NCBI RefSeq assembly: GCF_016717175.1
Contig: NZ_JADKFZ010000003.1
Length of the DNA: 37,303 nucleotides
Strand: one strand, 5' to 3'
Origin: Nannocystis sp.
GTDB taxonomy: Bacteria; Myxococcota_A; Polyangia; Nannocystales; Nannocystaceae
Within the stretch, counting starts at the first letter, position 1, and each line of letters begins with the position of its first letter. Shown one piece after another: positions 1,293 through 33,839 of this stretch. The notes under the pieces were generated by a model. The model did no database searches. It was given only the letters and a program-made list of their open reading frames with translations, and was not told where the DNA came from. The translations under genes were made by a program, and so were the position numbers.

Positions 1293-1394
1293 GGCCTGAA
1301 GCGGGCAGAAGCGGCTGAAACGGCAGAAGCGGCCTCAAGCGGCCAATTGGGGGACGGTGGCGTTTACGCGCACGGGTGGTTATGCTCGTGGACG

Positions 1395-3308
1395 ATGTCT
1401 CACCGCCGCCTCCTCGCAATCCCTCTCGCGCTCGTGGCGTGTGATCCGGCGACCGGCGATCGGGACGGCGGGCTGGATGTCCCGGAGGACAGGTCGGATG
1501 TCCCGGGGGACATCCGGGCGCCGGGCGGGCTGGATGTCCCGGAGGACAGGTCGGATGTCCCGGAGGACATCCAGGACGCGGCCGAACTCGGGGCGCCGCG
1601 CGGGATGTCGCCGCTGGGTGGGCCGCGGGGGTGGACCACGCCGACGCCCGCGCCGCTGCCAGCGGTCAAGGCGCCGCTGCCGGCGGCGTATTGCAAGATC
1701 AACGTCAACGGCGTCGATCACGACACAGAGACGGACTACGTGCCGCACGTGGTCCAGTGCGAGAACGGGGGCGCCAACTTCGAGGCGCTCAAGGCCCAGG
1801 CGATCGCGGCCCGGTCGGTGGCGTACTACGCGATGGCGAACGACGGCAAGATCTGCGACGGGCAGGGCTGTCAGGTGTACTCGTGCAACGCCAACCCGAC
1901 GCAGGCGCAGCTCGACGCGGCCAAGGCGACGGCGGGGCAGTACCTGTCGTTCAACGGGTGGCTGACCTATGCCTTCTACGTCGCCGGCGACTCGACCACG
2001 GCGCCGCCGAGCTGCGTCGACACCGACAACGGCAACGCCTCGGCGACCGAGAAGTGGGTGACCTTCAATAATGGCAAGACGGGTTACGACGTCGACCAGA
2101 CGGGGCTCGGCTTCAAGTTCCCCGAGGACCTGAATGTGGCGGGTTACGGGCAGAACCGCGGCTGCATGTCGCAGTGGGGCGCTCGCTGCCTCGAGAACAA
2201 GAACGGCAAGAACAGCACGGACATCCTGCAGTTCTACTTCGGCGCGGACATCCAGATCTTGCAGGCGGAGGGGTCGTGTGTGGTCCCGCCGAACAAGCCG
2301 GCGAGCGGGTCGCTCGACGAGGTGAGCTGCACGCAGCTGCGCGGGTGGGCCTTCGACGGCGACAGCGGGGCCGCGGCGATCAACGCGTACGTCAGCTTCC
2401 ATGCGCCGCTCGGAGATCCGGCGGCGGTGTCGATCACGCTGCTGGCGGCGGAGCAGCGCGACGACCTGTGCGACATGCTCGGGAGCTGCACGCACGGCTT
2501 CTCGCACGGGCTGCCGCGCTCGCTGATGGACAACCAGCCGCACCCGGTGCACGCGTACGCGGTCGATCCGCAGGCCGATCCTGTCGAGGTTGGCGGTAGC
2601 CCGAAGGACCTGCTGTGCCCGCCGCCGGCGCTGCCGGAGGGGGTGCGGCGGCACATTGGCAGCCCGGAGGTGTTGGCCGACTGGCAGTTCGACACCTTCT
2701 GGCAGATGGCGAAGGTCGACGACGCGACGCTGAACGCGATCGCGGAGTGGCAGGCGATCCCGACCTCGCCGCTGCTGATGCGGGTCGAGGGCGACCCGGC
2801 GGTGTGGCTGTTCGACAACGGGTTTCGTCGGCTGATCCCGAGTCCGGAGGTGGCGGCGGCCTGGAAGATGGATCTCAACGCGGCGGCGCTGTGGACCGCG
2901 GAGGAGCTGATGATGGTGCCCGAGGGCACCCCGCTGCGACCGGAGCCGTTCCTGATCACGGGCGCGGGGCCGGCGGTGTACCTGATCGACGACGCGCAGT
3001 GTCCGGCGCAGGGCGACCCGAACGACCCGCTGTGTCCGCCACCCGACCCGAGTGGGGGTAGTGACGGCGGCGAGAGCAGCGGCGGGGCGGGCAGCTCGGG
3101 TGGCAATACCCCGACCGAGGGCTGGGTCGGGTCGGAGGGGGGCGTGGGTGCTTCGAGCGGGGCGGGCGAGGGCGGGCAGTTGGACAGCGGACCGGCGTTG
3201 CCGCCGGGGTACGGCGGCCAGAGCGGCTGTGTGGTCGATCCGGTCCAGCGGGGAGCGCCGGGTGTGCTCGTGCTCGCGGGGGTGTTGTTGCGGCGACGGC
3301 GACGCTAG
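1395..3308 (+). CDS. SpoIID/LytB-domain lipoprotein with N-terminal 19-aa tandem repeats and a MYXO-CTERM-like tail
   Basis: Start MSHRRLLAIPLALVACD has a lipobox. The motif EALKAQAIAARSVAYYAM..CDGQGCQVY resembles the SpoIID/LytB amidase-enhancer core (ALKAQAVAARTYA). The C-terminus GCVVDPVQRGAPGVLVLAGVLLRRRRR has the Cys + TM + Arg-run pattern typical of MYXO-CTERM sorting tails. Confidence 0.6.
   Translation: MSHRRLLAIPLALVACDPATGDRDGGLDVPEDRSDVPGDIRAPGGLDVPEDRSDVPEDIQDAAELGAPRGMSPLGGPRGWTTPTPAPLPAVKAPLPAAYCKINVNGVDHDTETDYVPHVVQCENGGANFEALKAQAIAARSVAYYAMANDGKICDGQGCQVYSCNANPTQAQLDAAKATAGQYLSFNGWLTYAFYVAGDSTTAPPSCVDTDNGNASATEKWVTFNNGKTGYDVDQTGLGFKFPEDLNVAGYGQNRGCMSQWGARCLENKNGKNSTDILQFYFGADIQILQAEGSCVVPPNKPASGSLDEVSCTQLRGWAFDGDSGAAAINAYVSFHAPLGDPAAVSITLLAAEQRDDLCDMLGSCTHGFSHGLPRSLMDNQPHPVHAYAVDPQADPVEVGGSPKDLLCPPPALPEGVRRHIGSPEVLADWQFDTFWQMAKVDDATLNAIAEWQAIPTSPLLMRVEGDPAVWLFDNGFRRLIPSPEVAAAWKMDLNAAALWTAEELMMVPEGTPLRPEPFLITGAGPAVYLIDDAQCPAQGDPNDPLCPPPDPSGGSDGGESSGGAGSSGGNTPTEGWVGSEGGVGASSGAGEGGQLDSGPALPPGYGGQSGCVVDPVQRGAPGVLVLAGVLLRRRRR
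1467..1580 (+). repeat. 57-bp in-frame tandem duplication encoding GGLDVPEDRSDVP(G/E)DI(R/Q)(A/D)(P/A)
   Basis: Two near-identical consecutive 19-codon units are visible in both the DNA and the translation. Each unit contains a ggatgtccc..gggacatcc inverted repeat. Confidence 0.8.
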
Positions 3309-3430
3309 CGATCGGGCGTGTTGATCAGCAGTGCTCGTGCTCGTGGGGGTGTTGTTGCGGCGACGACACTCGCGGTCAGGCGTGTAGGTCGGCGCTGCTC
3401 GTGCTCGCGGGGCGACGCTAGCGATCGGGC
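3264..3430. repeat. Triplicated, partially deleted copies of the SpoIID-gene 3' tail filling the convergent intergenic space; the palindromic GCTAGCGATCG motif supplies the TAG stop for both convergent genes
   Basis: The segment gtgctcgtgctcg(c/t)ggggg tgttgttgcggcgacg occurs three times (about 3268, 3330 and 3385). The 18-mer cgacgctagcgatcgggc occurs at the + gene stop (about 3298) and again at the - gene stop (about 3412). Confidence 0.7.
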
Positions 3431-5439
3431 AGGTGGATCGGCTCGGGGCCGGCGAGGGTTGGGGGCGCGAGCAGGGCGTCGAGGCTGCGCTGCGTGATCG
3501 GGTGGTAGGCCGGACGGGCCTTCGCGTAGATCTCGTGGGCGCGGGGTTGGCCGGTCGGTGAGGCGAGCAGGGCCTCGTAGATCGGGGTCAGGTATTTGCG
3601 GCGGCCGACCTCGACGAGGAAGCGCTCGAGACGGGCGTCGGCGGGCCGGTAGTCGTGGGTGGCGGCCAGCAGCAGCCACTGCGCGAGCACCTCGTAATTG
3701 CTGCTGGCGCCGAGCTGGAAGGCGGCGTCGAGCTGATCGAGCAGGGCCACGGCGTTGCTCGCGGTGAGCGGGAGGCTCCGCAGGAAGTAGATCCAGTGCT
3801 GCGGGCTCCACGTGCGGGTGGGCAGCTTTTTCGCGGGGGTCTCGCCGCGGGCGAAGGAGGCGGCTGCGGTGGCGACGGCGTCGAGGCCGGGGGCGCGGGC
3901 CTGCGGGGCGTCGGGGAGCAGGCCGGGGCTGGTCAGCCAGAGCTCGAGGTCGGGGGTGTTCTGGCCGGGGAGCAGCGGCTGGGTGAGCAGGACCTCGCGG
4001 AAGAAGCGGGTGAACTCGGCGGTGGGCTGGCTGGTGAAGGCGTGCTCGGCGAACCAGCGGGCGAGGGCGAGGTCGAAGGCGGGGCGGCCGAAGGCCTGCT
4101 CGAGGCGGCGCAGCAGCAGGTAGCCCTTCTCGTAGGGGATGTCGGAGAACACGTCGTCGGGGTCGCGGCCGGCGAGGTCGACGTGGAGGACGGTGTCGCC
4201 GGGGTGCTCGGCGAGGGCGGCGAGGTCTCTCTCGAGGTCCTGGCGGCCGAGGGCGGCCTCGATCTCGGCGCGCTCGGCCCCGTAGATGGCCTCGACGATG
4301 CGGCGCTCGAGGTAGACGGTGAAGCCCTCGTTGAGCCAGAGGTCCCGCCAGGTGGCGTTGGAGACGAGGTTGCCGGACCAGCTGTGGGCCAGCTCGTGGG
4401 CGATGAGGGCGACCAGTGAGCGGTCGCCGGCGAGGATCGTGGGGGTGACGAAGGTGACGCGGGGGTTCTCCATGCCGCCGAAGGGGAAGGCGGGCGGGAG
4501 GACCAGGACCTCGTAGCGGCCCCAGCGGTAGGGGCCGAACTGCTGCTCGGTGGTGGCGAGCATGGCCTCGAGGTCGGCGAACTCGTGGCGGGCGCGGGCG
4601 ACCAGGCTGGGCTCGGCCCACACGCCCGTGCGCGGGCCGGTGCTGGCCGACTCGAGGCGGCCGACGGCGAGGGCGAGCAGGTAAGGGGGGATCGAGTGGT
4701 CGAGGGCGAAGCGGTGGACCTGGCCTTCGGGACCTGTCTCGACGGACAGGGTCTCGGCGGCCATGACGGGCACGGTGGGGGCCGGGCTGCGCACGCGGGC
4801 GTCGAAGGTGATGCGGATCCCGGGGCTGTCCTGTACGGGGACCCAGGAGCGGGCGTGGATCGCCTGCGACTGGGTGTAGAGGAAGGGAGCGAGGTGGTCG
4901 GCGGTCTGCTCCGGGCCGAGCCACTGCAGGCCGCTGGCGGCGGGGGTCGTACGGTAGGTGACGCGGACGCGGTCGACCGCGGGCGGCAGGTCGATGTGCA
5001 GGGGTCGGCCGAGCACGGGATGCAGGCCGCCGAGCCCGAAGGTGGTGCTGCGCCAGGCGAGGTCGGAGGCGCCGGCGAGGCGCAGCGGGGGATCGGTGGC
5101 GGTGGCGGTGGCGACCTCGACGCGGTCGACCTCGAGATCGCGGGTGTCGAGGACGAGCTCCCGGGCGTCGGGGCGGCGGGTGATGGCGAGGGTGACGGCG
5201 CCGGAGAGGATGTGGGCGTCGAAGTCGACGACGAGGTCGAGGCCCAGGTGGGTGACGCGGGCCTCGTCGGGGCGGGCGAAGGAGTGCGGGTCGGGGCCGG
5301 GGGCCTGCAGGGCGGGGAGGGTCGGGACCGCGGCGGGCGGGGTGGAGAAGGTCGGCGTCGGGGTGTTCGACATGCAGGCGGGCCCGAGCGAGAGGGTGGC
5401 GGCGAGGGTGGCGAGCGCAGGGCGCGAGGGGAGGCGCAA
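3418..5439 (-). CDS. M1-family zinc aminopeptidase (leukotriene A4 hydrolase / aminopeptidase N-like) lipoprotein
   Basis: GGMENP (GAMEN-type exopeptidase motif), HELAHSWSGNLV (HExxH zinc site) followed by NEGFTVYLE (third zinc ligand Glu), and the catalytic YEKG tyrosine motif. The N-terminus LSLGPACMS has a lipobox. Confidence 0.85.
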   Translation of the reverse strand: MRLPSRPALATLAATLSLGPACMSNTPTPTFSTPPAAVPTLPALQAPGPDPHSFARPDEARVTHLGLDLVVDFDAHILSGAVTLAITRRPDARELVLDTRDLEVDRVEVATATATDPPLRLAGASDLAWRSTTFGLGGLHPVLGRPLHIDLPPAVDRVRVTYRTTPAASGLQWLGPEQTADHLAPFLYTQSQAIHARSWVPVQDSPGIRITFDARVRSPAPTVPVMAAETLSVETGPEGQVHRFALDHSIPPYLLALAVGRLESASTGPRTGVWAEPSLVARARHEFADLEAMLATTEQQFGPYRWGRYEVLVLPPAFPFGGMENPRVTFVTPTILAGDRSLVALIAHELAHSWSGNLVSNATWRDLWLNEGFTVYLERRIVEAIYGAERAEIEAALGRQDLERDLAALAEHPGDTVLHVDLAGRDPDDVFSDIPYEKGYLLLRRLEQAFGRPAFDLALARWFAEHAFTSQPTAEFTRFFREVLLTQPLLPGQNTPDLELWLTSPGLLPDAPQARAPGLDAVATAAASFARGETPAKKLPTRTWSPQHWIYFLRSLPLTASNAVALLDQLDAAFQLGASSNYEVLAQWLLLAATHDYRPADARLERFLVEVGRRKYLTPIYEALLASPTGQPRAHEIYAKARPAYHPITQRSLDALLAPPTLAGPEPIHLPDR

Positions 5440-5467
5440 GGTGGGGCGACGATAGCGGAAAATGCGA

Positions 5468-5496
5468 AGGGCCGGGCGCTTGCGCGTCCGGCCCCG
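5468..5496 (-). terminator. GC-rich hairpin (gggccgggcgc-ttgc-gcgtccggccc) 45 nt downstream of the BI-1 stop, followed on the coding strand by ttcgcattttcc
   Basis: A 10-11 bp stem with one mismatch and a 4-nt loop is visible in the sequence, with a T-rich tail on the minus strand. It lies between the BI-1 stop (5540) and the M1 peptidase start (5439). Confidence 0.35.
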
Positions 5497-5539
5497 ATGT
5501 CACTCAGGCGGGCAGCTGTGGCCCGCGCTGGCGTCTTCT

Positions 5540-9984: not shown

Positions 9985-12015
9985 ATGGTGTCACGATGCG
10001 ATCGTCTGGGTCTCGGGGTGTGGCTTGTGATCACGGGCTGCGGCGACAGCGGGGGCGGCAGCGCCAGCGCTGCGAGCACGGGTGAGCCGCCGCTGACGAC
10101 GGGGACGGTGCCGACGACGGGCCAGACGCCGACGGGCGGCGCGACGGGGACGGGGGCCGAGGGCACGGACAGCGCGGCGGGCACGAGCACGGGCGCGAGC
10201 ACGACGGTGGCCGCGACGAGCACGAGCACGGGGGCGGCGACCGGCGGCGGCGAGACGACGAGCGGTGAGCTCGTGTTCTGCGGCGACGAGCCGCCTGCGG
10301 GCTACGTCGGCGACTTCGACGCGAACTGCAAGAGCGAGCCGCAGATCGGGGTGTTCAAGCCGGTGGTGGAGTGGAAAAAGGTCGACTGGACGGTGAACCC
10401 GGGGGCGAAGGCCGTGATGATGGCGCCGATCGTGGTGTCGCTGGACGACGACAACATGGACGGGAAGATCGACGGCGACGACCTGCCGGACCTCGCGTAC
10501 GTGACCTACGGCGGGCCCCAGGACCAGCCGGGGACGGTGCGGGCGATCTCTGGCGACGGCAGCAAGGAGCTGTGGAGCGCGGTCGACGGGCTGTGCGCGA
10601 CGTCCGGGCTGGCGGCGGGGGATATCGACGGGGATGGGATGGTCGAGCTGGTGGGCATCACGCACACGCTGCAGGTCCGGGCCTTCGAGCACGACGGGGC
10701 GATCAAGTGGACGACGGGGAGCTACGTCGGGGACATGTCGTATTGCTATTCGACGCCAGCGATCGCCGACATGGACGGCGACGGCAAGCCGGAGGTGATC
10801 GCGGGGCGGGTGATCCTCGACGCGGCGGGGCTGCAGCTCGGCAAGGGCCAGTTCGGCAGCGGCGCGGCGGCCTTCGCGAGCGCGTCGTTCGCGGCCGACA
10901 TCGACGGGGATGGTGATCAGGAGGTGGTTGTGGGCAACGCGCTGTACCGGATCGACGGCAGCGCGATCTGGTCGAACGGACAGACCGACGGCTACCCGGC
11001 GGTGGCGGACTTCGACGGCGATGGCAAGCCGGAGATCGTGGTCTCGGGCTTCGGAAAGCTGCGCCTGCAGAACGGCGGCGGCGGGACGGTGTGGGATGTG
11101 GCCAACCCGGCGCAGGGCGGCGGGCCGCCGACGATCGCGGACTTCGACGGCGACGGCGAGCCGGAGATCGGGGTCGCGGGCAAGACCAACTATGTCGTGT
11201 TCGAGACCGACGGGACGGTGCTGTGGCAGCAGCCGACGCAGGACGCGAGCTCGTCGGCGACCGGATCGTCGGTCTACGACTTCGAGGGCGACGGGATCGC
11301 GGATGTGGTCTACGCCGACGAGACGACGCTGTACGTGTACTCGGGCAAGGACGGGGCGATCAAGCTGAGCTACGGCGAGCATGCGAGCGCGACGATCATC
11401 GAGTATCCGCTGGTGGTCGACGTCGACGGCGATGATCAGGTCGAGATCGTGGTGGCGCACAGCGGCTACCAGGGGCCCGAATTCGGCATCACGGTGCTGG
11501 GCGACATGGACCAGTCATGGCGACCAGGGCGCAAGATCTGGAATCAACACGCGTACAACATCACGAACGTCGACGACGCGGGCGGCATCCCGACGTTGCC
11601 CGATCCGAACTGGTTGACCTACAATAACTTCCGCTCGGGCGACCTGTCGCCGCCGGACGGGCTGGCGGCGCCGGACCTCAAGCTGCTCGCGCCGGACGCG
11701 TGCGTGAACGAGTGCCTGGGCGGCAAGCAGGCGGTGGTCTGGTATCAGCTGGCGAACGCGGGCGCGGGCGCGCTGACGGCTGGCGCGACGGTCGAGGTGT
11801 ACGGGACCAGCATGGGCGTCGAGAAGCTGCTGGCGACCAAGCAGTTCGACATGGTGCTGGCGCCGGGCGAGGTGTCGGAGGGGCAGAGCGTGCTGGTCGA
11901 CACGACGGGGCTCGACTCGCTGCGCATGGTGGCCAAGCCGGCCGAGGAAGAGTGCGTGGTCGACCCGGCGGACGAGCTCCTGCTGGTGCCGCCGTTTTGC
12001 ACGGCGCCGGGGTAG
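9985..12015 (+). CDS. FG-GAP/VCBS-repeat beta-propeller lipoprotein with a T/S/G-rich linker
   Basis: Signal and lipobox MVSRCDRLGLGVWLVITGCGD. At least seven repeats of the form hhxDhDGDGxxEhhhG (DIDGDGMVELVG, ADMDGDGKPEVIAG, ADIDGDGDQEVVVG, ADFDGDGKPEIVVSG, ADFDGDGEPEIGVAG, YDFEGDGIADVVYAD, VDVDGDDQVEIVVAH) are integrin-alpha FG-GAP-like Ca-binding repeats. Confidence 0.7.
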   Translation: MVSRCDRLGLGVWLVITGCGDSGGGSASAASTGEPPLTTGTVPTTGQTPTGGATGTGAEGTDSAAGTSTGASTTVAATSTSTGAATGGGETTSGELVFCGDEPPAGYVGDFDANCKSEPQIGVFKPVVEWKKVDWTVNPGAKAVMMAPIVVSLDDDNMDGKIDGDDLPDLAYVTYGGPQDQPGTVRAISGDGSKELWSAVDGLCATSGLAAGDIDGDGMVELVGITHTLQVRAFEHDGAIKWTTGSYVGDMSYCYSTPAIADMDGDGKPEVIAGRVILDAAGLQLGKGQFGSGAAAFASASFAADIDGDGDQEVVVGNALYRIDGSAIWSNGQTDGYPAVADFDGDGKPEIVVSGFGKLRLQNGGGGTVWDVANPAQGGGPPTIADFDGDGEPEIGVAGKTNYVVFETDGTVLWQQPTQDASSSATGSSVYDFEGDGIADVVYADETTLYVYSGKDGAIKLSYGEHASATIIEYPLVVDVDGDDQVEIVVAHSGYQGPEFGITVLGDMDQSWRPGRKIWNQHAYNITNVDDAGGIPTLPDPNWLTYNNFRSGDLSPPDGLAAPDLKLLAPDACVNECLGGKQAVVWYQLANAGAGALTAGATVEVYGTSMGVEKLLATKQFDMVLAPGEVSEGQSVLVDTTGLDSLRMVAKPAEEECVVDPADELLLVPPFCTAPG

Positions 12016-24338: not shown

Positions 24339-25545
24339 TGTGCAGCTCGTGGGCGAGGGCCTGGGCGAGGGCGTCGTAGTCTTCGTCGCGGTTGTAGGCC
24401 TGGGCGGAGATGCGGATCAGGCGGCGGGGCGGGGCGGGCCACACGGGCCAAACGGGCCAAACGGGAATGGGGACCTCGATGTGGTGGCGCTCGTAGAGGG
24501 CGAGCTGGAGCGGGTCGGCGTGGAACGGGGAGGCCAGACCGCCGGGGCCGTCGGGGAGGGGCAGGGCGGCGAGGTTGCCGAGCATGGCGTCGGGGGCCGG
24601 GGCGGCGACGCCGAGGACGGCGGCGAGGCGGTCGCGCCCGCGGAGCAGCTGGGCGTGGTTGCGGGCGCGGAGCTCGGGCCAGCCGCCGGGGAACAGCTCG
24701 CCGAGCCAGCGGATCGCCGGGGCGACGCACAGCCAGGGGGTCGGGTCGTCGGTGCCGGTCCAGTCGAACTCCTCCCACAGGGCCGGGCGGCCGCGGGCGG
24801 TGAGGTTGTAGCCGTGGCTGATGATGGTCGGGTGGAGGCCCGATTGGCGATCGCGGCGGACGTGCAAGATGGCGGCGCCCTTGGGGGCGCAGACCCACTT
24901 GTGGAAGTTGCCGGTGTAGTAGGCGGCGCCGAGGGCGTCGAGCTCGAGCGGGACCATGCCGGGGCCGTGGGCGCCGTCGACCAGGGTGTCGACGCCGCGC
25001 TCACGCAGGGCCGCGACGATCTCGGCGACCGGGAAGATGAGGCCGGTCGGGCTGGTGATGTGGTCGACGAGGGCGAGGCGCGTGCGCGGGCTGACGCCGG
25101 CGAGCAGCGGGGCGACGACCTCGTCGGGGCCGGCGATCGGGAAGGGCACGTGGACGACGACGAGGCGGGCGCCGCTGCGCTCGCAGAGGTGGCGCAGGGC
25201 GTTGTGGCAGGCGCCGTAGACGTGGTCGGTGGTGAGCAGCTCGTCGCCGGGTTCGAGGCGCAGCGAGCCGAGCACGGCGGCGACGCCGGCGGTGGCGTTG
25301 CGGACGAAGGCGAGGTCCTCCGGGCGGGCGCCGAGGAAGCCGGCGACCTGCTCACGGGCGTGGTCGAGGAGGGGCCCCAGGGCGTGGATGTAGAAGTGGA
25401 CCGGCTCGCGCTCGATGACGGCGCGCAGGCGGTCCTGCTCGGCGAGGATGACCCGCGGGCAGGCGCCGAAGGAGCCGTGGTTGAGGAAGACGACCGCGGG
25501 GTCGAGGGTCCAGTGGGCGCGGAGATCGTCCGCCGTCGGCCGCAT
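24325..25545 (-). CDS. Class V (fold type I) PLP-dependent aminotransferase / isopenicillin-N-epimerase-like
   Basis: FLNHGSFGACP near the N-terminus; the PLP-lysine motif GNFHKW; ~400 aa. Start MRPTADDLRAHWTLDPAVVFLNHGS. Confidence 0.8.
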   Translation of the reverse strand: MRPTADDLRAHWTLDPAVVFLNHGSFGACPRVILAEQDRLRAVIEREPVHFYIHALGPLLDHAREQVAGFLGARPEDLAFVRNATAGVAAVLGSLRLEPGDELLTTDHVYGACHNALRHLCERSGARLVVVHVPFPIAGPDEVVAPLLAGVSPRTRLALVDHITSPTGLIFPVAEIVAALRERGVDTLVDGAHGPGMVPLELDALGAAYYTGNFHKWVCAPKGAAILHVRRDRQSGLHPTIISHGYNLTARGRPALWEEFDWTGTDDPTPWLCVAPAIRWLGELFPGGWPELRARNHAQLLRGRDRLAAVLGVAAPAPDAMLGNLAALPLPDGPGGLASPFHADPLQLALYERHHIEVPIPVWPVWPVWPAPPRRLIRISAQAYNRDEDYDALAQALAHELHITAS

Positions 25546-25567
25546 GCCGGCGAGTATACTGCGGCCG

Positions 25568-26884
25568 ATGCTGCGCACGGCGGTCCGTAACAGCTTCGGG
25601 GCGGCGCTGCGGGTGTTCTTTCGCCGCATCGAGGTGGTGGGGGCGGAGCGGGTGCCGGCGACGGGGCCGGTGATCTTCGTGCTGAACCACCCGAACGCGC
25701 TGATCGACCCGGCCTTCTTGCTGTGCCTGGCGCCGCGTCCGGTGTCGTTCCTGGCCAAGGCGCCGCTGTTTCAGACGCCGGTGCTGGGGTGGATCGTGCG
25801 GGCCTTCGACTCGATCCCGATCCACCGCAAGCAGGACGAGGGCGGGGCGGTCGACAACCGCGACACCTTCAAGCTGGCGCGCGAGCTGCTGCAGCGGGGC
25901 CAGACGGTGGCGATCTTCCCGGAGGGGACCTCGCACAGCGAGCCGCACCTGAAGCCGCTGAAGACGGGGGCGGCCCGCATCGCCCTGGGGACCGGGCTCG
26001 CGGACCTGAAGATCGTGCCGACGGGGCTGTACTACGTCAACAAGGCGAAGTTTCGCAGCGACGCGCTGGTGGTCTACGGCGAGCCGTTTGGCGTTGAAGC
26101 AGCGGTGGGCGAGCCCGGGGCGGAGCCGGCGGCGGCGGCGGTGCAGGCGTTGACGGGGCGGATCGAGCGGGCGCTCGGCGAGGTGCTGCTGCAGGCGGAC
26201 CAGGCGGAGGCGCTGGCGCTGGTCGAGCGGGTCAGCCGGATCTTCGCGGCGACCAGCGAGGCGCCGTGGTCGCTGGCGGAGGGCTTCGAGCTGCGCCGGC
26301 GGGTCGCGGCCGGGTACTCGCGGCTAAGAGAGGCGGACCCGGTGGCGGTGGCGGCCGTGCGGGCCCGGGTGGAGCGCTACGAGCAGGATCTGGCGGCGCT
26401 GGGGATGTCGCCGGAGCACTACGGGCCGGCGGACTTCACGGTGATGGGGAGCGTCCGCTACGCGCTGCGCAGCGCGGGGAGCCTGCTGTTGCTGCTGCCG
26501 CTGGCGCTGCTCGGGACGGCGCTGCACCTGCCGATCTACCTCGTGATCGATGCGATCGCAGGGCGGATCGCCCGCGATGAGATGGACATGCCGGCGACGA
26601 TCAAGCTGCTGGCGGCGATGCTGCTGTACCCGCTGGCGTGGATCACGATCGGGGTGGTGGCCGGGGTGCTGTGGGGAGGGGCGTGGGGGGTGCTGGCGGG
26701 GCTGCTGGCGCCGATCAGCGCGGCGGCGGCGTTGTTGTTTCGCGAGCGCTTCGCCACGGTCGGGGCGGCGGCGCGGGGGCTGCTGCTGTTCGTGACGCGG
26801 CGCAACACGCTGGCGCGGCTGCACGGCGATCGCATGGCGATCCGGGCGGCGATCGTGGAGCTGGCGCGGCGGGTCGAGGGCTGA
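25568..26884 (+). CDS. PlsC-like lysophospholipid acyltransferase with a C-terminal multi-TM extension
   Basis: HxxxxD acyltransferase motif VLNHPNALID and the FPEGT motif, followed by a hydrophobic C-terminal third. Start ambiguity: ATG 25568 (MLRTAV..) or ATG 25544 (MPASIL..), the latter overlapping the divergent aminotransferase start. Confidence 0.7.
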   Translation: MLRTAVRNSFGAALRVFFRRIEVVGAERVPATGPVIFVLNHPNALIDPAFLLCLAPRPVSFLAKAPLFQTPVLGWIVRAFDSIPIHRKQDEGGAVDNRDTFKLARELLQRGQTVAIFPEGTSHSEPHLKPLKTGAARIALGTGLADLKIVPTGLYYVNKAKFRSDALVVYGEPFGVEAAVGEPGAEPAAAAVQALTGRIERALGEVLLQADQAEALALVERVSRIFAATSEAPWSLAEGFELRRRVAAGYSRLREADPVAVAAVRARVERYEQDLAALGMSPEHYGPADFTVMGSVRYALRSAGSLLLLLPLALLGTALHLPIYLVIDAIAGRIARDEMDMPATIKLLAAMLLYPLAWITIGVVAGVLWGGAWGVLAGLLAPISAAAALLFRERFATVGAAARGLLLFVTRRNTLARLHGDRMAIRAAIVELARRVEG

Positions 26885-26990
26885 GGCTGGCGGAAGGGAC
26901 AGGCTGGTCGAAGGGACAGGCTGGCCGAAGGGACAGACTGGCGGAAGGGACAGGCTGGCCGAAGGGACAGGCTGGCCGAAGGGTCAGGTC
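26882..26990. repeat. Six tandem copies of a 17-bp unit GGCTGGCCGAAGGGACA, bounded by the TGA of the + gene and (via ggTCAgg) the stop of the - strand reading frame
   Basis: Copies in order: ggctggcggaagggaca / ggctggtcgaagggaca / ggctggccgaagggaca / gactggcggaagggaca / ggctggccgaagggaca / ggctggccgaagggtca, then ggtcgcgggtgggg. Confidence 0.85.
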
Positions 26991-28367: not shown

Positions 28368-28466
28368 GGCGCTGCTCTCTACCACGAGTGGCGCCGGGTC
28401 TGTCGCCTGTGAGCTGGCGCGGGGGCTGACCCGAAACCGGGGGGCGAGGGTAACATCCGCGGCCGC

Positions 28467-31400
28467 ATGCGCCGCACCGCCCTGTCTCGCCCGTCCGTCG
28501 CGCTGGTCTCGCTGGGTCTCGGGCTGAGTCTCGTGACCTGCGCCCCGAAGGCGCCGAGCAGCCCGCCAGCGCTCGCCCACACGCCCGGCGCGCCCGCCAC
28601 CAAGCCGACACCTGTCCCGAAGGACAGCACGGGGAAGGCCGAGCCGGAGGTCCCGAAGTGGGACGTGAACGACCCGCCGGGCGAGGAGCAGGAGGTCAAG
28701 CTGGACGTCCGCGAGGGCACGTGGATGGCGCTCGACGTGAGCCCGGATGGGCGCGAGCTCGTGTTCGACCTGCTCGGCGACCTGTATCTCCTGCCGATCG
28801 CGGGCGGCGAGGCGCGGGCGCTGACGCAGGGGATGGCCTGGGACATGCAGCCGCGCTTCAGCCCGGACGGGCAGTGGATCGCGTTCACCAGCGACCGCGG
28901 CGGCGGCGACAACGTGTGGGTGCTCGCGCGGCCGACGGCTGCGGGGGCGGTGGTGGCGGAGCCGAAGCCAGAGCCCAAGCAAGTCACGAAGGAGGACTTC
29001 CGGCTGGTGAACAGCCCGGTGTGGTCGCCCGACGGGAACTTCATCGCGGTGCGCAAGCACTTCACCAAGCACCGCAGCCTCGGCACCGGCGAGATCTGGC
29101 TGTACCACGTGGCGGGCGGCAAGGGCGTGCCGATGACGGAGAAGGTCAACGACCAGAAGGATGTCGGCGAGCCGGCGTTCTCGCCGGACGGGGCCCATCT
29201 TTACTTCAGCCTCGACAACACGCCGGGGGCGACCTTCGAGTACAACAAGGACCCGTACGGCGAGATCTACGCGATCAAGCGGCTGGAGCGGGCCAGCGGG
29301 CGCATCGAGACGCTGGCCGGCGGGCCCGGGGGCGCGGCCCGGCCGACGCCGTCGCCGGACGGCAAGTCGCTGGCGTTCATCCGTCGCGTCGGCGGCACCG
29401 CGGGCGCGCCGGACAAGACGACGCTGATGGTCCGCGAGCTGCAGTCGGGGGCGGAGCGCCCGGTGTTCGCGGGGCTCGACCGCGACATGCAGGAGACCTG
29501 GGCGATCCATGGCGTGTACCCGGCGATCGCGTGGACGCCGGACAGCCGCGAGCTGGTGTTCTGGGCCGCGGGCAAGCTGTGGCGCACGCGGGCCGACGGC
29601 AGCCAGGCGGCGCCGACCGAGATCCCGTTCCACGTGAGCGGGACCCGCAAGGTGGCGCCGGCGCTGCGCTTCGCGGTCGAGGTGGCGCCGCGCGAGGTCG
29701 ACGTGAAGGCGCTGCGCGGGGTGACGGTGAGCCCGGACGGCGGCCGCGTGGTCTACCAGGCGCTCGGCCACCTGTACGTACGGACATTGCCCGAAGGACA
29801 GGCGAAGCGGCTGACCAAGCAGAGCGACCACTTCGAGCAGGACCCGGCCTTCTCGCGCGACGGCAAGCAGATCGTGTTCACGACCTGGGACGACCAGGCG
29901 CTCGGCAGCGTGCGCACGATCGCGGTCGGCGGCGGCAAGGAGCGGGTGATCAGCGATCGGCCGGGGCACTACGTGGCGCCGCAGTGGAGCCCGGACGGCA
30001 AGCAGGTGGTCGTGCAGCGGATCGGCGGGGGCTGGACGCGCTCGCCGACCTGGTCGCAGGAGCAGGGCATCTACGCGATCGAGGTGAAGACGGCGAAGGC
30101 GACGCTGGTCCGCCGCGACGGGGCCGAGCCGCACTTCGGGGCGGCGAGCGATCGGCTGTTCTTCAGCAGCTACGACGACGACAAGGTGGAGCTGCGCAGC
30201 GTGGAGCTGGACGGCAGCGACGAGCGCACGCACGTGAAGACGGAGGGGGCGAGCCGCCTGCGGGTGTCACCGGACGGGCGCTGGCTGGGCTGGACGGAGG
30301 GCTTCCAGGCGCTGATCGCCCCGCTGCCGCCGACCGGGCGGACCATCGAGCTGGGGCCGAAGGCGGAGGGGCTGCCGGTCGCCAAGGTGAGCCGCGACGC
30401 GGGCGAGCACGTGCACTGGTCGGGCGACAGCCAGCGCCTGCACTGGTCGCTGGGGCCCGAGCTGTACACGCGCGAGCTGAAGGACGCGTTCGCGTTCGTG
30501 GCCGGGGCCCCGGCGGAGCTGCCCAAGCCGGCGGAGACGGGGCTGGCGATCGGCTTCAAGGCGCCCGCGGCGGTGCCGACGGGGACGCGGGCGATCGTCG
30601 GGGCGCGGGTGATCACGATGCGCGGCGACGAGGTGATCGAGGACGCGACGATCGTGATCAACGGCGATCGCATCAGCGCGATCGGGCCGTCGGCGCAGCT
30701 GCAGGCGCCGGCCGGGGCGGAGGTCGTGCGGGCCGAGGGCAAGACGATCATCCCGGGGCTGATCGACGTGCACGCGCACGGCAGCCAGGGCGAGGACGGC
30801 ATCACGCCGGAGCAGAACTGGCTGCACTACGCGATGCTGGCGTACGGGGTGACGACGGTGCACGACCCGAGCAACGACACGGCGTCGATCTTCGCGGCGA
30901 GCGAGATGCAGCGGGTCGGGGCGGTGGTCGGGCCGCGCATCTTCTCGACCGGGACGATCCTGTACGGGGCGCAGGCGCCGTTCAAGGCGGAGATCGCCAG
31001 CCTCGAGGACGCGCGCGGGCACCTGCGCCGGCTCAAGGCGATCGGGGCCTTCTCGGTCAAGAGCTACAACCAGCCGCGGCGAGAGCAGCGGCAGCAGGTG
31101 ATCGCGGCGGCGCGCGAGCTCGGGATGATGGTGGTGCCGGAGGGCGGCGCGCTGTTTCACCACAACATGACGATGGTCGCCGACGGGCACACGGGCATCG
31201 AGCACGCGCTGCCGGTGGCCAGCGCCTACGCGGACGTGATGCAGTACTGGGGGGCGACCAAGGTCGGCTACACGCCGACGCTCGGGGTGGCCTACGGGGG
31301 CTTAGGCGGCGAGAACTACTGGTACGCGCACACGCAGGTGTGGGAGGACAGCCGGCTGCGGCGCTTCGTGCCGGCCAACGCGTTCGAGCCGCGCGCCCGT

Positions 31401-31874
31401 CGGCGGACCCTGGCGGCCGACAACGACTGGAACCACGTGCGGGTGGCGAGCCTGGCCAAGCAGCTGCTCGACGCGGGCGTGAAGGTGCAGCTGGGGGCGC
31501 ACGGGCAGCGCGAGGGGCTGGCGGTGCACTGGGAGCTGTGGAGCTTCGCCCAGGGCGGGATGACGCCGCTCGAGGTGCTGCGCACGGGCACCCTGGCGGG
31601 GGCGCAGTACCTCGGCCTCGACCGCGACCTCGGCTCGCTCGAGCCGGGCAAGCTGGCGGACCTCTTGATCCTCGACCGCGACCCGCGGGTCGACATCCGC
31701 GCGACCCGGCAGGTGGCGATGGTGATGATCGGCGGGCAGCTGTTCGACGCGGGGACCATGGCGGAGATCGGCGGGGCGAAGCGGGTGCCGCAGCCGTTCT
31801 ACTTCAGCGAGGGCGGGCGCCTGAGCGGCAAGCCGCCCGCGCACGCGCAGTGCGTCGGCCACGCGGCGCACTGA
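28467..31874 (+). CDS. Lipoprotein fusing an N-terminal TolB-like (PD40/WD40-like) beta-propeller to a C-terminal metal-dependent amidohydrolase domain
   Basis: Lipobox LSLVTCAP. Repeated ..SPDG(K/Q)xIAF/VF.. PD40 motifs (FSPDGQWIAFTSDRGG, WSPDGNFIAV, SPDGKSLAFI, WSPDGKQVVV). The amidohydrolase metal-binding signature is IIPGLIDVHAHG..., with later GHTGIEHA and HGQREG motifs. Confidence 0.8.
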   Translation: MRRTALSRPSVALVSLGLGLSLVTCAPKAPSSPPALAHTPGAPATKPTPVPKDSTGKAEPEVPKWDVNDPPGEEQEVKLDVREGTWMALDVSPDGRELVFDLLGDLYLLPIAGGEARALTQGMAWDMQPRFSPDGQWIAFTSDRGGGDNVWVLARPTAAGAVVAEPKPEPKQVTKEDFRLVNSPVWSPDGNFIAVRKHFTKHRSLGTGEIWLYHVAGGKGVPMTEKVNDQKDVGEPAFSPDGAHLYFSLDNTPGATFEYNKDPYGEIYAIKRLERASGRIETLAGGPGGAARPTPSPDGKSLAFIRRVGGTAGAPDKTTLMVRELQSGAERPVFAGLDRDMQETWAIHGVYPAIAWTPDSRELVFWAAGKLWRTRADGSQAAPTEIPFHVSGTRKVAPALRFAVEVAPREVDVKALRGVTVSPDGGRVVYQALGHLYVRTLPEGQAKRLTKQSDHFEQDPAFSRDGKQIVFTTWDDQALGSVRTIAVGGGKERVISDRPGHYVAPQWSPDGKQVVVQRIGGGWTRSPTWSQEQGIYAIEVKTAKATLVRRDGAEPHFGAASDRLFFSSYDDDKVELRSVELDGSDERTHVKTEGASRLRVSPDGRWLGWTEGFQALIAPLPPTGRTIELGPKAEGLPVAKVSRDAGEHVHWSGDSQRLHWSLGPELYTRELKDAFAFVAGAPAELPKPAETGLAIGFKAPAAVPTGTRAIVGARVITMRGDEVIEDATIVINGDRISAIGPSAQLQAPAGAEVVRAEGKTIIPGLIDVHAHGSQGEDGITPEQNWLHYAMLAYGVTTVHDPSNDTASIFAASEMQRVGAVVGPRIFSTGTILYGAQAPFKAEIASLEDARGHLRRLKAIGAFSVKSYNQPRREQRQQVIAAARELGMMVVPEGGALFHHNMTMVADGHTGIEHALPVASAYADVMQYWGATKVGYTPTLGVAYGGLGGENYWYAHTQVWEDSRLRRFVPANAFEPRARRRTLAADNDWNHVRVASLAKQLLDAGVKVQLGAHGQREGLAVHWELWSFAQGGMTPLEVLRTGTLAGAQYLGLDRDLGSLEPGKLADLLILDRDPRVDIRATRQVAMVMIGGQLFDAGTMAEIGGAKRVPQPFYFSEGGRLSGKPPAHAQCVGHAAH

Positions 31875-32054
31875 GGCTGTCTGCGGGGACAGGTGGGCTG
31901 TCCGCGGGGACAGGTGGTGCTGTCCCTCGGGACAGCTCTGATCGGCTGGCCGCGGGGACAGGTGGTGCTGTCCATCGGGACAGGTCAGGTCGCGGGTGGG
32001 CGGCTCAGGTGGGTTGTCTGAAGGGACAGGTGAGCTGTCCGCCGGGACAGCTCA
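31872..32054. repeat. Array of ~8 imperfect hairpin units (CTGTCC-N3-4-GGGACAG, ~21-22 bp period) plus two GGTCAGGTCGCGGG(T/C)GGGCGG end modules, spanning exactly from the amidohydrolase TGA to the murJ TGA
   Basis: Units in order: ctgtctgcggggacag, gctgtccgcggggacag, gctgtccctcgggacag, ggccgcggggacag, gctgtccatcgggacag, ttgtctgaagggacag, gctgtccgccgggacag. The murJ last codons ..PPAT-TGA are the reverse complement of ctcaggtcgcgggcgggcgg. Confidence 0.85.
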
Positions 32055-33662
32055 GGTCGCGGGCGGGCGGCGGCGGATCCGTCGCCACAGGCTGCGTGGG
32101 AGGCGGGCGAGGCTGTCGATGCCGGGGAAGCGGGCGAGCTGCAGCACGCTGACGTAGACGAGGAAGCCGAGGCCGACGATGAGCAGGAGGGCGAGGGCGA
32201 GGGCGAGGGTGGCGAGCGGGCCGCGCAGGGCGAGCTGCGTGAGGCCGAGGGCGGCGCCGGTCCAGGCGGCGTAGAGGACTCCGCCCATGACGGCGTTGGC
32301 GAGCAGCAGCCAGGCGAGCTCGCGGACGCGGCCGGGGCGGGCGAGCGGGCCGACCTTGCGGGCGAAGAACAGGCGCAGGAGGCCGACGTTGACGAGGGCG
32401 CCGAGGCTGGTGCCGAGCGCGAGGCCGGGGGCGCCGAGCTGGCGGTAGAAGTAGGCGTTGAAGGCGATGGTGGCCGCGATCGCGGCGAGCGAGGCGAGCA
32501 GGGGCAGGCGCGGGCGGTCGGTCGCGTAGAAGGCGGGGGCGACGATCTTGACCATGCTGTAGGGGACCAGGCCGAGGGCGTAGGCGCGGAGGATCGCGGC
32601 GACGGCGAGGGTGTCGGCGGCGGTGAAGCGGCCGCCCTCGTAGATCAGGGAGACGATCGGCTCGGCGAGGACGACCAGGCCGACGGTGCTGGCGGCGGTC
32701 AGCAGCCAGAGGGCGGACAGGCTCTCACCTGTCTTTTGGACCAGGCCGCTGCGGTCGCCGCGGGCGGCCTCCTCGGACAGCTGGGTGGTGGCGATGGTGG
32801 CGAGGGCGACGCCGAACATGCCGATCGGGAGGTAGAAGATGCGAAACGCGTACTCGAGCTGGGCGACGGGGCCGTCGCCGAGGCTGGCGGCGAAGCGGGT
32901 GTTGACGAAGATGTTGACCTGGATCGCGGCGACGCCGACGACGGCGGGGAGCATCATGCGGGCGATCCTCCGCACGCCGGGGTGGCGCCAGGCGCCGCGC
33001 AGGGCCAGGCGCGGGCGGTAGCCGAGGCGCCACAGCGGGGGCAGGAGGTAGAAGCTCTGGACCACGCCGGCGGCGAGGGTGCCGATGCTCCACGCGGTCA
33101 CGGCCCACATGCCGCCGGCGCCGGCGATCCACAGGCCAGCGCCGCAAAGCACGCTGATCACGTTGAACAGCGCGGGCGCGTAGGCGGGGGCGAGGAAGTG
33201 GCGCTGCGCGTTGAGCATGCCGGTCCACACGGCGCCGACGCTGACGAGGGCGAGCAGCGGCATCATGATGCGGGTCAGCGCGGCGGCGTCGGCGAGCTTG
33301 GCGGGGCTCCAGCCGGCGGTCATGAGGCGGACCAGGTCGTCGGCGAACACGACGCCCAGCAGGGTGAGGCCGCCGGTGACGAGCAGCAGGACCGCGAGGG
33401 TGAGGTTGGCGAGCTGGTCAGCGCGGGCCCGGTCCTCCTGCACGAGGGCGGCGGTGAAGGTCGGGACGAAGGCGCTCGAGAGGGCGCCCTCGGCCAGCAG
33501 ATCGCGCAGGAGGTTCGGGATCCGGAAGGCGACGGAGTAGGCGTCGGCGAGCGCCCCGGCGCCGACGAGGCGGGAGAACAGGGCCTCGCGCAGGAGGCCG
33601 AGCACGCGTGACACGGCGACGGCCAGGCTGAGCGACCCGGATCTCTGCAAGCTGCCGGACAA
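32052..33662 (-). CDS. murJ: Lipid II flippase MurJ (MviN)
   Basis: N-terminal signature AVAVSRVLGLLREALFSRLVGAGALADAYSVAFRIPNLLRDLLAEGALSSAFVPTF; 14 predicted TM helices; 536 aa. Confidence 0.9.
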   Translation of the reverse strand: MSGSLQRSGSLSLAVAVSRVLGLLREALFSRLVGAGALADAYSVAFRIPNLLRDLLAEGALSSAFVPTFTAALVQEDRARADQLANLTLAVLLLVTGGLTLLGVVFADDLVRLMTAGWSPAKLADAAALTRIMMPLLALVSVGAVWTGMLNAQRHFLAPAYAPALFNVISVLCGAGLWIAGAGGMWAVTAWSIGTLAAGVVQSFYLLPPLWRLGYRPRLALRGAWRHPGVRRIARMMLPAVVGVAAIQVNIFVNTRFAASLGDGPVAQLEYAFRIFYLPIGMFGVALATIATTQLSEEAARGDRSGLVQKTGESLSALWLLTAASTVGLVVLAEPIVSLIYEGGRFTAADTLAVAAILRAYALGLVPYSMVKIVAPAFYATDRPRLPLLASLAAIAATIAFNAYFYRQLGAPGLALGTSLGALVNVGLLRLFFARKVGPLARPGRVRELAWLLLANAVMGGVLYAAWTGAALGLTQLALRGPLATLALALALLLIVGLGFLVYVSVLQLARFPGIDSLARLPRSLWRRIRRRPPAT

Positions 33663-33839
33663 GGCCGGGTCACGCTAGTTCAGGCGGCGCGGGCTGTCGA
33701 CTCCCTGGCCGTGGCGATCCCTGGTGTGGTCGCGGGGTGAGCCCTGACTGGGCTGGGCTGTGTCCGGCCGTCGTGCTCGCGCGGGTGTTGGGCAGGCGGC
33801 CGACGCCGGGCTGCCAGGGCCTTCGGGGCGCCTGCCATC

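What the first reader, a model, noticed from the sequence alone, without database searches (positions are those of the whole stretch)
3264..3430. Convergent SpoIID-like / M1-peptidase junction filled by three degenerate copies of the MYXO-CTERM-coding tail, with palindromic GCTAGCGATCG stops
The last ~50 bp of the + gene (gtgctcgtgctcgcggggg tgttgttgcggcgacg gcgacgctagcgatcgggc) is repeated twice more downstream, with internal substitutions and deletions. The 18-mer cgacgctagcgatcgggc containing the palindromes GCTAGC and CGATCG occurs at the + gene stop and again, 114 bp later, at the - gene stop. The M1 peptidase therefore ends ...PDR* on the reverse complement of the same motif that ends the SpoIID-like gene ...RRR*. 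The middle copy carries ggtcagg, reminiscent of the GGGACAG element end module. This is a second, different example in the window of repeat structure generating both stop codons of a convergent pair.
Basis: seen in the sequence. Interest (0 to 1): 0.5.

Follow-up and report, generated by a model that had tools for sequence, protein, structure and literature searches.

The report
Tandem triplication separating two overlapping genes
A 67-base stretch that once held the overlapping ends of two facing genes has been copied three times in a row, so each gene keeps its own end and leftover copies fill the gap; this is real and happened independently in related bacteria, but it is ordinary repeat slippage, not a new system.

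Summary
Window 3264-3443 holds three head-to-tail copies of a 67-nt unit: c1 3264-3330, c2 3331-3394 (3-nt deletion) and c3 3395-3443 (18-nt deletion). The exact 18-mer CGACGCTAGCGATCGGGC lies at 3300 and 3413. It supplies the TAG of the SpoIID-domain gene (+, stop 3306-3308) and the TAG of the M1/LTA4H-like peptidase (-, stop 3418-3420).

A second Nannocystis assembly, 98.8% identical, has the same array, so it is not an assembly artefact.

The closest orthologous loci (81-83% M1 identity) have one copy, and there the two genes overlap by 4 or 29 nt. Removing 3318-3430 restores a junction collinear with them and a canonical CTAG stop-on-stop overlap. The repeat therefore did not create the stops. 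A tandem duplication across an overlapping junction copied them: c1 keeps the SpoIID end, c3 keeps the peptidase end, and the rest is decaying relic.

No RNA structure, terminator, Rfam family or link to the window's GGGACAG repeats was found.

Other Nannocystis lineages carry independent arrays at the same junction (41 nt x ~4, 23 nt x 4, 23 nt x 3), each separating the two genes by 80-102 bp. This is a neat, recurrent route to losing a gene overlap. Interest is modest.

The parts
1347..3308 (+). SpoIID-domain protein gene with a MYXO-CTERM-like tail (...GCVVDPVQRGAPGVLVLAGVLLRRRRR*). The start codon is uncertain; the relative P0121 is called at 637 aa.
   Evidence: ORF and translation. Pfam SpoIID 2.1e-11. 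TIGR02669 at 69 bits and TIGR03901 MYXO-CTERM at 15.2 bits, both below their cut-offs. Orthologues carry the same tail type.
3418..5439 (-). M1-family (leukotriene-A4-hydrolase-like) metallopeptidase gene ending ...EPIHLPDR*. The conserved domain ends at about residue 655 of 673, so the residues encoded by the repeat lie in a variable tail. The database call is 651 aa, so the start is uncertain.
   Evidence: P0001 is 100% identical. C-terminal tails vary among homologues.
3264..3330 (+). Copy 1 (67 nt). It holds the functional SpoIID tail (VLVLAGVLLRRRRR, TAG at 3306-3308) followed by a relic of the peptidase end, which reads LLINTPDR* on the minus strand.
   Evidence: It aligns with the SpoIID tails of the single-copy orthologues.
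3331..3394 (+). Copy 2 (64 nt), non-coding relic. The 5' 35-mer matches c1 at 34/35 (35/35 against c1 of L102). In the 3' half both stops are lost (CTAG to CTCG), with 4 substitutions and a 3-nt deletion in the 18-mer region. In the SpoIID frame it would read VLVLVGVLLRRRHSRSGV*.
3395..3443 (+). Copy 3 (49 nt). It holds a relic SpoIID tail with a 6-codon deletion (ALLVLAGRR*) and the functional end of the peptidase gene (PIHLPDR, stop at 3418-3420 on the minus strand).
3300..3317 (.). First copy of the 18-mer CGACGCTAGCGATCGGGC. Its CTAG (3305-3308) is the ancestral stop/stop overlap; here only the + strand TAG is used.
   Evidence: CTAG is the commonest convergent overlap type (bioRxiv 10.64898/2026.09.10.750558).
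3413..3430 (.). Second copy of the same 18-mer; here only the minus-strand TAG (3418-3420) is used.
3309..3417 (.). The 109-bp spacer between the two stop codons, made entirely of relic repeat sequence. No predicted structure, terminator or RNA family was found in it.
   Evidence: It is identical in L102.

Best explanation
This is a lineage-specific tandem duplication, now three copies, of a 67-nt segment that spanned the overlapping 3' ends of two convergent genes.

In the ancestor, the SpoIID-domain gene (+) and the M1 peptidase gene (-) ended on the same CTAG: ...CGC TAG on one strand and ...CGC TAG on the other. That gives a 4-nt overlap. Replication slippage or unequal recombination duplicated the junction. 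A tandem duplication that contains both stops leaves both proteins unchanged, so it is neutral and can persist. The first copy still provides the SpoIID tail and stop, and the last copy still provides the peptidase tail and stop. Everything between has become a 109-bp non-coding spacer that is decaying: both stops are lost in c2, c2 has a 3-nt deletion, c3 has an 18-nt deletion, and the relic peptidase tails have diverged.

Shown: the repeat, its presence in two assemblies, the single-copy overlapping state in the nearest relatives, the in-frame relics, and independent arrays at the same junction in other lineages.

Inferred: the molecular mechanism (slippage or unequal crossing-over), the order of events, and patchy gene conversion among copies.
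For: 1. The repeat is highly significant.
2. The same three-copy array with a 109-bp gap is present in an independent NCBI assembly, GCA_964267895.1. It is 98.8% identical over 9.3 kb, with 3 differences in the 241 nt around the array.
3. The nearest orthologous loci (M1 81-83% identical) keep the same gene order but have a single copy and overlapping ends: L001 4 nt (TTAG), L002 and L003 29 nt.
4. Deleting 3318-3430 gives a junction collinear with those loci.
5. Relics are in frame: c3 + strand ALLVLAGRR*, and c1 - strand LLINTPDR* against the real EPIHLPDR*.
6. The repeat unit is absent elsewhere in the 37-kb window. The 22 metagenome hits to the 18-mer are single, unrelated matches.
7. The same process recurs. 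L103/L104 have a 98-bp gap filled by about 4 copies of a 41-nt unit made of the SpoIID tail, with the M1 stop again a CTAG in the last copy. L111 has a 102-bp gap filled by 4.1 copies of a 23-nt unit. L107 has an 80-bp gap with 2.9 copies of a 23-nt unit. Their relatives L109 and L110 still overlap by 42 and 39 nt.
8. CTAG is the commonest convergent stop/stop overlap.
Against: Divergence among copies is patchy, not uniform as simple neutral decay would give. c1 and c2 differ at 1/35 positions in the 5' part but at 8 of about 31 in the 3' part. c1 and c3 are identical over 17 + 18 nt, including about 14 positions constrained in neither copy, yet differ at 5/13 just downstream. This calls for extra steps such as gene conversion, staggered duplications or some constraint.

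No two-copy intermediate and no single-copy strain of the same species was recovered. No read-level data could be examined. The four independent gaps are of similar size (80-109 bp), which a purely neutral model does not predict, although n = 4.
Confidence: 0.88

Rival explanations
1. The spacer made by the duplication has been kept, or expanded, because it is useful. It might separate two convergent transcription units or provide termination space. Alternatively, the relic copies might serve as donor cassettes or recombination partners that vary the SpoIID sorting tail, as in a contingency or VNTR-like locus.
For: Four lineages independently reached gaps of 80, 98, 102 and 109 bp with different unit lengths. 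The arrays have 3-4.5 copies rather than 2. The only difference within the array between the two strains (window 3277, C = Ala; L102 T = Val) toggles c1 between the states carried by c3 (C) and c2 (T). Unconstrained parts of c1 and c3 are unexpectedly identical. Recombination of c1 with c2 would give an intact alternative tail, VLVL(A/V)GVLLRRRHSRSGV*.
Against: There is no thermodynamic structure signal on either strand (z 0.04 and 0.93). There is no terminator-like site in the spacer; the one site found lies in the coding part of c1. There is no Rfam match. Five of nine orthologous junctions function while still overlapping. One C/T transition is weak evidence for conversion. The sample is too small to test gap-length convergence.
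Confidence: 0.08
2. A small mobile or REP-like repeat element (related to the window's GGGACAG arrays) inserted between the genes and brought stop codons for both strands.
For: Two other convergent junctions in the window are filled by tandem GGGACAG-type units. c2 contains GGTCAGG.
Against: The repeat unit is homologous to the native SpoIID tail and the native peptidase tail of single-copy orthologues. No other copy exists in the window. GGTCAGG is not enriched. No inverted termini or hairpins were found.
Confidence: 0.02
3. The array is an assembly artefact, a collapsed or expanded repeat in a metagenome-assembled genome.
For: The source is a MAG, and no reads were available.
Against: An independently assembled genome from a slightly different strain (1.2% divergence) has the identical three-copy structure. 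The copies differ by substitutions and by two different deletions, which misassembly does not produce. The unit is shorter than a typical read.
Confidence: 0.02

Closest known systems
Short convergent gene overlaps of the CTAG type (stop codon on stop codon)
   Same: Each 18-mer contains CTAG, which reads TAG on both strands. The nearest orthologue, L001, has the equivalent 4-nt TTAG overlap. CTAG is reported as 28% of convergent overlaps.
   Different: Here the overlap no longer exists. The motif is present twice, 113 nt apart, and each gene uses a different copy.
Bacterial minisatellite / VNTR-type tandem repeats generated by replication slippage or unequal recombination
   Same: Head-to-tail copies of a 23-67-nt unit, small indels between copies, different unit lengths and copy numbers in related lineages, and low-complexity GC-rich sequence (CTG/CGG-type Leu and Arg codons).
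   Different: The unit spans two gene ends on opposite strands, so the outermost copies are coding, each for a different gene, and the inner parts are relics. Copy-number variation within a species was not observed: two strains have the same array.
Gain and loss of gene overlaps by movement of stop codons (point-mutation model of overlap turnover)
   Same: [quoted passage not shown]
   Different: The transition here is by duplication of the shared segment, with neither protein changed, rather than by a new or lost stop codon. The overlap papers I read mention no duplication route, and one notes that loss mechanisms have been little studied (PMC4161906).
REP/BIME-like intergenic repeat clusters at convergent gene ends (such as the window's GGGACAG arrays)
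   Same: The location, between the stops of convergent genes, and the tandem arrangement.
   Different: There is no hairpin-forming palindromic unit, no dispersed copies, and the sequence is derived from the flanking genes themselves.

Membership tests
Local tandem duplication (minisatellite-like array) | Head-to-tail copies with significant similarity | tested here: met
   TRF score 201. Alignment z-scores of 18.5, 11.1 and 6.2 against shuffles.
Local tandem duplication (minisatellite-like array) | The unit derives from sequence native to the site: a single copy in orthologous loci, collinear after collapse | tested here: met
   L001-L003 are single-copy. The collapsed window junction aligns collinearly with them.
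Local tandem duplication (minisatellite-like array) | A real genomic feature, not an assembly artefact | tested here: met
   Same array in the independent assembly GCA_964267895.1, which is 98.8% identical. Read-level support was not testable.
Local tandem duplication (minisatellite-like array) | Copy-number polymorphism within the species (VNTR behaviour) | tested here: not met
   The two available strains have the same three copies. A third assembly (P0005) could not be retrieved.
CTAG-type convergent stop/stop overlap (ancestral state) | One CTAG serves as TAG for both convergent genes in frame | tested here: met
   In a single 18-mer, the + frame reads RR* and the - frame reads PDR* on the same CTAG. 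L001 has the 4-nt equivalent. That this was the ancestral state is an inference.
MYXO-CTERM sorting signal (for the repeated coding tail) | Tripartite tail: Cys-containing motif, hydrophobic helix, Arg-rich end (PMC11980579 abstract) | tested here: inconclusive
   The tail GC...GVLVLAGVLLRRRRR fits by eye, and orthologues are so named by JGI. TIGR03901 scores 15.2 bits, below its cut-off of 20. The repeat unit excludes the Cys motif.
REP/MITE-like mobile intergenic element | Dispersed copies and palindromic or hairpin units or terminal inverted repeats | tested here: not met
   No other copies in the window. No homologous metagenome hits. No excess folding. The rest of the source genome could not be searched.
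Intrinsic terminator / structured RNA in the spacer | A stable, better-than-shuffled structure or a match to a known family | tested here: not met
   z 0.04 (+ strand) and 0.93 (- strand). No terminator-like site in 3309-3417. No Rfam hit in the array.

The most novel reading that the evidence does not exclude
Tandem duplication of the shared segment may be a recurrent, possibly selected, route by which overlapping convergent genes are pulled apart without changing either protein. At this Nannocystis junction it has happened at least three times, each time settling at a spacer of about 80-110 bp. The relic copies may continue to exchange sequence with the live MYXO-CTERM-like tail by gene conversion or unequal crossing-over, making the sorting tail of the SpoIID-domain protein variable.
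Probability: 0.12. Interest if true: 0.5.

Novelty: new member of a known kind. Interest (0 to 1): 0.22.

Why it matters
The feature itself is a neutral-looking tandem repeat and changes nothing about either protein.

Its value is as an example. It is a clean, polarised natural case, with overlapping single-copy relatives and in-frame relics on both strands, showing that a gene overlap can be lost by duplicating the shared segment rather than by moving a stop codon. The overlap literature I could read describes frequent gain and loss of overlaps but hardly discusses how they are lost.

The independent recurrence at one orthologous junction suggests one of two things. Either the low-complexity Leu/Arg-coding sorting tails are slippage hot spots, or separating convergent genes is favoured. 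A genome-wide survey could test both.

For annotation, it is a warning that repeats carrying stops for both strands can simply be copied gene ends.

Tried and rejected
- Retrieving the source contig and the 99%-identical P0005 assembly by exact protein look-up failed.
- The single genome-contig scan, with the conserved M1 19-mer CTGCGTGATCGGGTGGTAG, returned mostly chance hits in unrelated high-GC bacteria. It found five Nannocystaceae loci in which SpoIID is not the neighbour, and it did not recover the source genome.
- The metagenome scan for the 18-mer gave 22 single hits, none homologous to the junction.
- The link to the GGGACAG element through GGTCAGG was rejected because the 7-mer is not enriched.
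- A terminator or structured-RNA role was rejected on present evidence.
- I considered whether c2's TCA (3376-3378) could be an ancestral peptidase stop like the TCA of L002/L003. By positional homology it is out of the peptidase frame, so I rejected it (inspection).
- The long minus-strand ORF 3305..5503 that also ends PDR* is an Arg/Pro-rich off-frame artefact of the peptidase gene.
- N. exedens lacks the SpoIID neighbour, so it is uninformative about the junction.
Full report
**1. What is in the sequence**

Window 3264-3443 contains three head-to-tail copies of one unit.
- c1, 3264-3330: GTGCTCGTGCTCGCGGGGGTGTTGTTGCGGCGACGGCGACGCTAGCGATCGGGCGTGTTGATCAGCA (67 nt).
- c2, 3331-3394: the same with one substitution in the first 35 nt, then a 3-nt deletion and eight substitutions (64 nt).
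- c3, 3395-3443: the first 17 nt and the 18-mer CGACGCTAGCGATCGGGC are identical to c1, an 18-nt block (equivalent to 3282-3299) is deleted, and the last 13 nt diverge (49 nt).

TRF scores the array 201 (period 64, 83% matches), and the repeat finder reports the three-copy family. Local alignment scores are far above 2000 dinucleotide shuffles: z = 18.5, 11.1 and 6.2. The 18-mer is exact at 3300 and 3413 and has no other match within 2 mismatches in the 37 kb. The 35-mer is found only in c1 and c2. The 18-mers are 113 nt apart, not 114, and the array runs about 13 nt further right than the finding states.

**2. The genes**

The + ORF 1347..3308 has a SpoIID domain (Pfam 2.1e-11). It ends ...GCVVDPVQRGAPGVLVLAGVLLRRRRR*. 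That tail fits the Cys / hydrophobic helix / Arg-rich architecture described for MYXO-CTERM (PMC11980579 abstract), but it scores below the NCBIfam cut-off (15.2 against 20 bits).

The - ORF 3418..5439 is an M1, leukotriene-A4-hydrolase-like peptidase (Peptidase_M1 3.5e-42, Leuk-A4-hydro_C 1e-22). It ends ...EPIHLPDR*. Its conserved C-terminal domain stops about 18 residues before the end, and homologues have unrelated tails after ...LDALL. The long alternative minus ORF 3305..5503 is an Arg/Pro-rich off-frame product.

The database names the identical peptidase as coming from a Nannocystis sp. MAG.

**3. It is not an assembly artefact**

A near-identical SpoIID protein (P0121) led to L102, contig CAXWJW010000043.1 of GCA_964267895.1. 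It is 98.8% identical to the window over 9.3 kb, with 89 mismatches, so it is a different strain or population and a different assembly. It has the same three copies and the same 109-bp distance between the stops. Only three differences fall in the 241 nt around the array. The copies also differ from each other by substitutions and two different deletions, which duplication by an assembler would not give. Read-level evidence was not available.

**4. What relatives look like**

The gene order Bax1-I, M1 peptidase, then SpoIID in the opposite direction, is conserved in the closest metagenomic relatives. The junctions are as follows.

| Locus | M1 identity to window | Junction | Tandem array at junction |
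|---|---|---|---|
| window | - | 109-bp gap | 67 nt x 3 |
| L001 | 81% | 4-nt overlap (TTAG: TAG on one strand, TAA on the other) | none |
| L002 | 81% | 29-nt overlap | none |
| L003 | 83% | 29-nt overlap | none |
| L103 / L104 | 72% | 98-bp gap | 41 nt x ~4 |
| L111 | 72% | 102-bp gap | 23 nt x 4.1 |
| L109 | 68% | 42-nt overlap | 15 nt x 4.2 inside the overlap |
| L110 | 68% | 39-nt overlap | none |
| L107 | 69% | 80-bp gap | 23 nt x 2.9 |

If window 3318-3430 is removed, keeping c1 up to the end of its 18-mer and continuing after the 18-mer of c3, the junction aligns collinearly with L001-L003. The SpoIID tail codons of c1 align with their tail codons, and the sequence after c3 aligns with their peptidase ends. 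In that collapsed state the two genes share one CTAG...CGA CGC TAG on the plus strand and ...GAT CGC TAG on the minus strand. CTAG is the commonest type of convergent overlap in bacteria, 28% in a survey of 3998 genomes (bioRxiv 10.64898/2026.09.10.750558). The longer palindrome CGCTAGCG follows simply from both proteins ending Arg(CGC)-stop(TAG).

**5. Relics on both strands**

Each copy carries the remains of both gene ends.
- c1 encodes the live SpoIID tail. On the minus strand it reads LLINTPDR*, a diverged copy of the live peptidase end EPIHLPDR* in c3.
- c3 carries the live peptidase end. On the plus strand it reads ALLVLAGRR*, the SpoIID tail with six codons deleted.
- c2 has lost both stops (CTAG to CTCG). 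In the SpoIID frame it would read VLVLVGVLLRRRHSRSGV*.

This is what a tandem duplication spanning a convergent junction predicts. The first copy keeps the end of the gene coming from the left, the last copy keeps the end of the gene coming from the right, both proteins are unchanged, and the inner material is released from selection.

**6. Mechanism and open details**

The most likely mechanism is slipped-strand mispairing or unequal recombination in low-complexity GC-rich sequence (CTC/GTG/TTG Leu-Val codons followed by CGN Arg codons), with a second round once two copies existed. This step is inferred.

Divergence is patchy. c1 and c2 differ at 1/35 positions in the 5' part but at 8 of about 31 in the 3' part. 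c1 and c3 are identical over 17 + 18 nt, including about 14 sites constrained in neither copy, and then differ at 5/13. In the last 13 nt, c1 and c2 share two states against c3, which suggests that c1 and c2 are the younger pair.

The single array difference between the two strains (3277 C, Ala, in the window; T, Val, in L102) toggles c1 between the state of c3 and the state of c2. Together these hint at gene conversion among copies, but one transition is weak evidence.

**7. No sign of a separate function**

The spacer and its complement fold no better than shuffled sequence (z 0.04 and 0.93). The terminator scan finds nothing in 3309-3417. Rfam gives nothing in the array. The GGGACAG arrays at 26884-26988 and 31875-32050 share nothing else with this unit.

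**8. Recurrence at the same junction**

Details of the other arrays in the table above:
- L103 and L104 come from two JGI samples. Their unit is built from the SpoIID tail (...ALALLL..RRDGR*, each copy keeping its TGA). The peptidase stop is again a CTAG (GCGCTAGCGC) in the last copy, and the peptidase tail PSAAAAPRDPQR* is encoded antisense to that copy.
- L111 is a sister of L103 at 90% M1 identity. Its unit covers a different segment, the SpoIID ...GRRRRGA* end, at 94% match.
- In L107 the last copy of the array carries the peptidase stop.
- In L110 the peptidase tail PASAPPTPPQEQQP is literally the antisense of LLLLRRRRRR.

On an M1 neighbour-joining tree, the window lineage is sister to the overlapping L001-L003. 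L103 and L111 are nested among the overlapping L109 and L110, and L107 is separate. So there were at least three independent separations by duplication. All four separated junctions are filled by local tandem repeats, whereas one of five overlapping junctions has an array. The four gaps are similar in size (80-109 bp) despite different unit lengths. With n = 4 this is only a curiosity.

**9. Comparison with what is known**

Overlap gain and loss between orthologous pairs is known to be frequent. The papers I could search explain it by stop or start codon movement, and they contain no mention of duplication. One states that loss mechanisms have been neglected (PMC4161906). Tandem duplication by slippage is of course a standard process. 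I therefore file this as a new example of a known kind of event, a local tandem repeat, with a tidy and slightly under-described consequence: un-overlapping of convergent genes. It is not a mobile element, a terminator or a new system.

**10. Verdict**

Confidence in the duplication-across-an-overlap explanation is 0.88. Interest is 0.22, raised a little from ordinary by the clear polarity and the independent recurrences.

Noticed in passing
L103 4939-5144; L104 same; L111 junction (M1 end 4471, SpoIID 3' end 4574); L107 3435-3514; L109 4930-4998: The orthologous SpoIID/M1 junction carries independent tandem arrays in other Nannocystis lineages: 41 nt x ~4, 23 nt x 4.1, 23 nt x 2.9 and 15 nt x 4.2. 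Three of them separate the genes by 80-102 bp. L109 still overlaps by 42 nt, with the array encoding a repetitive TPAST-type peptidase tail.
   Followed up: yes
L110 4490-4528 and the M1 tails: In relatives, the variable C-terminal tail of the M1 peptidase is simply the antisense translation of the SpoIID Leu/Arg sorting tail. For example, PASAPPTPPQEQQP is antisense to LLLLRRRRRR. The peptidase tail therefore looks like a by-product of a wandering stop codon.
   Followed up: partly
window 26884-26988: A 17-nt unit (AGGCTGGCCGAAGGGAC) repeated 6.2 times at 90% match starts exactly at the stop (TGA 26882-26884) of the + gene 25394..26884. It ends in GGTCAGGTCGCGGGTGGGG.
   Followed up: no
window 31875-32071: An array of hairpin-like units (GCTGTCC-N4-GGGACAGC, about 21-22 nt x 5-8) exactly fills the space between the stop of the + gene 28413..31874 and the stop of the - gene 32052..33674. 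The motif (G/C)TCAGGTCGCGGG(T/C)GGG recurs at 26984, 31985 and 32052, and at 32052 its TCA is the stop of the - gene. It looks like a REP-like family distinct from the repeat studied here.
   Followed up: no
window 1467-1580: A 57-nt tandem duplication (91% identical), itself made of 21-nt GGATGTCCCGGAGGACAGGTC units with GTCCC/GGGAC inverted motifs, lies inside the N-terminal coding region of the SpoIID-domain gene. It encodes the repeated GGLDVPEDRSDVP(G/E)DI. It resembles the GGGACAG-type repeats but is in frame within a gene.
   Followed up: no
window 10181-10258 and 23687-23767: Two further tandem arrays, 39 nt x 2.0 and 18 nt x 4.5, are rich in GCACGAGCAC, the complement of the GTGCTCGTGC Leu/Val-codon motif seen in the repeat studied here. 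Their relation to gene ends or signal/anchor segments was not examined.
   Followed up: no
window 3277 versus L102 7883: The only difference between the two strains inside the array is C (Ala) against T (Val) in copy 1. The two states are those carried by copy 3 and copy 2 respectively, which may be a trace of gene conversion between copies.
   Followed up: partly
L105 (Nannocystis exedens NETK01000001.1) 4924-5344: In N. exedens the M1 peptidase is followed by a different convergent gene (Choice_anch_L-like) with a 421-bp gap. The SpoIID/M1 pairing is therefore limited to a subclade of Nannocystis.
   Followed up: no
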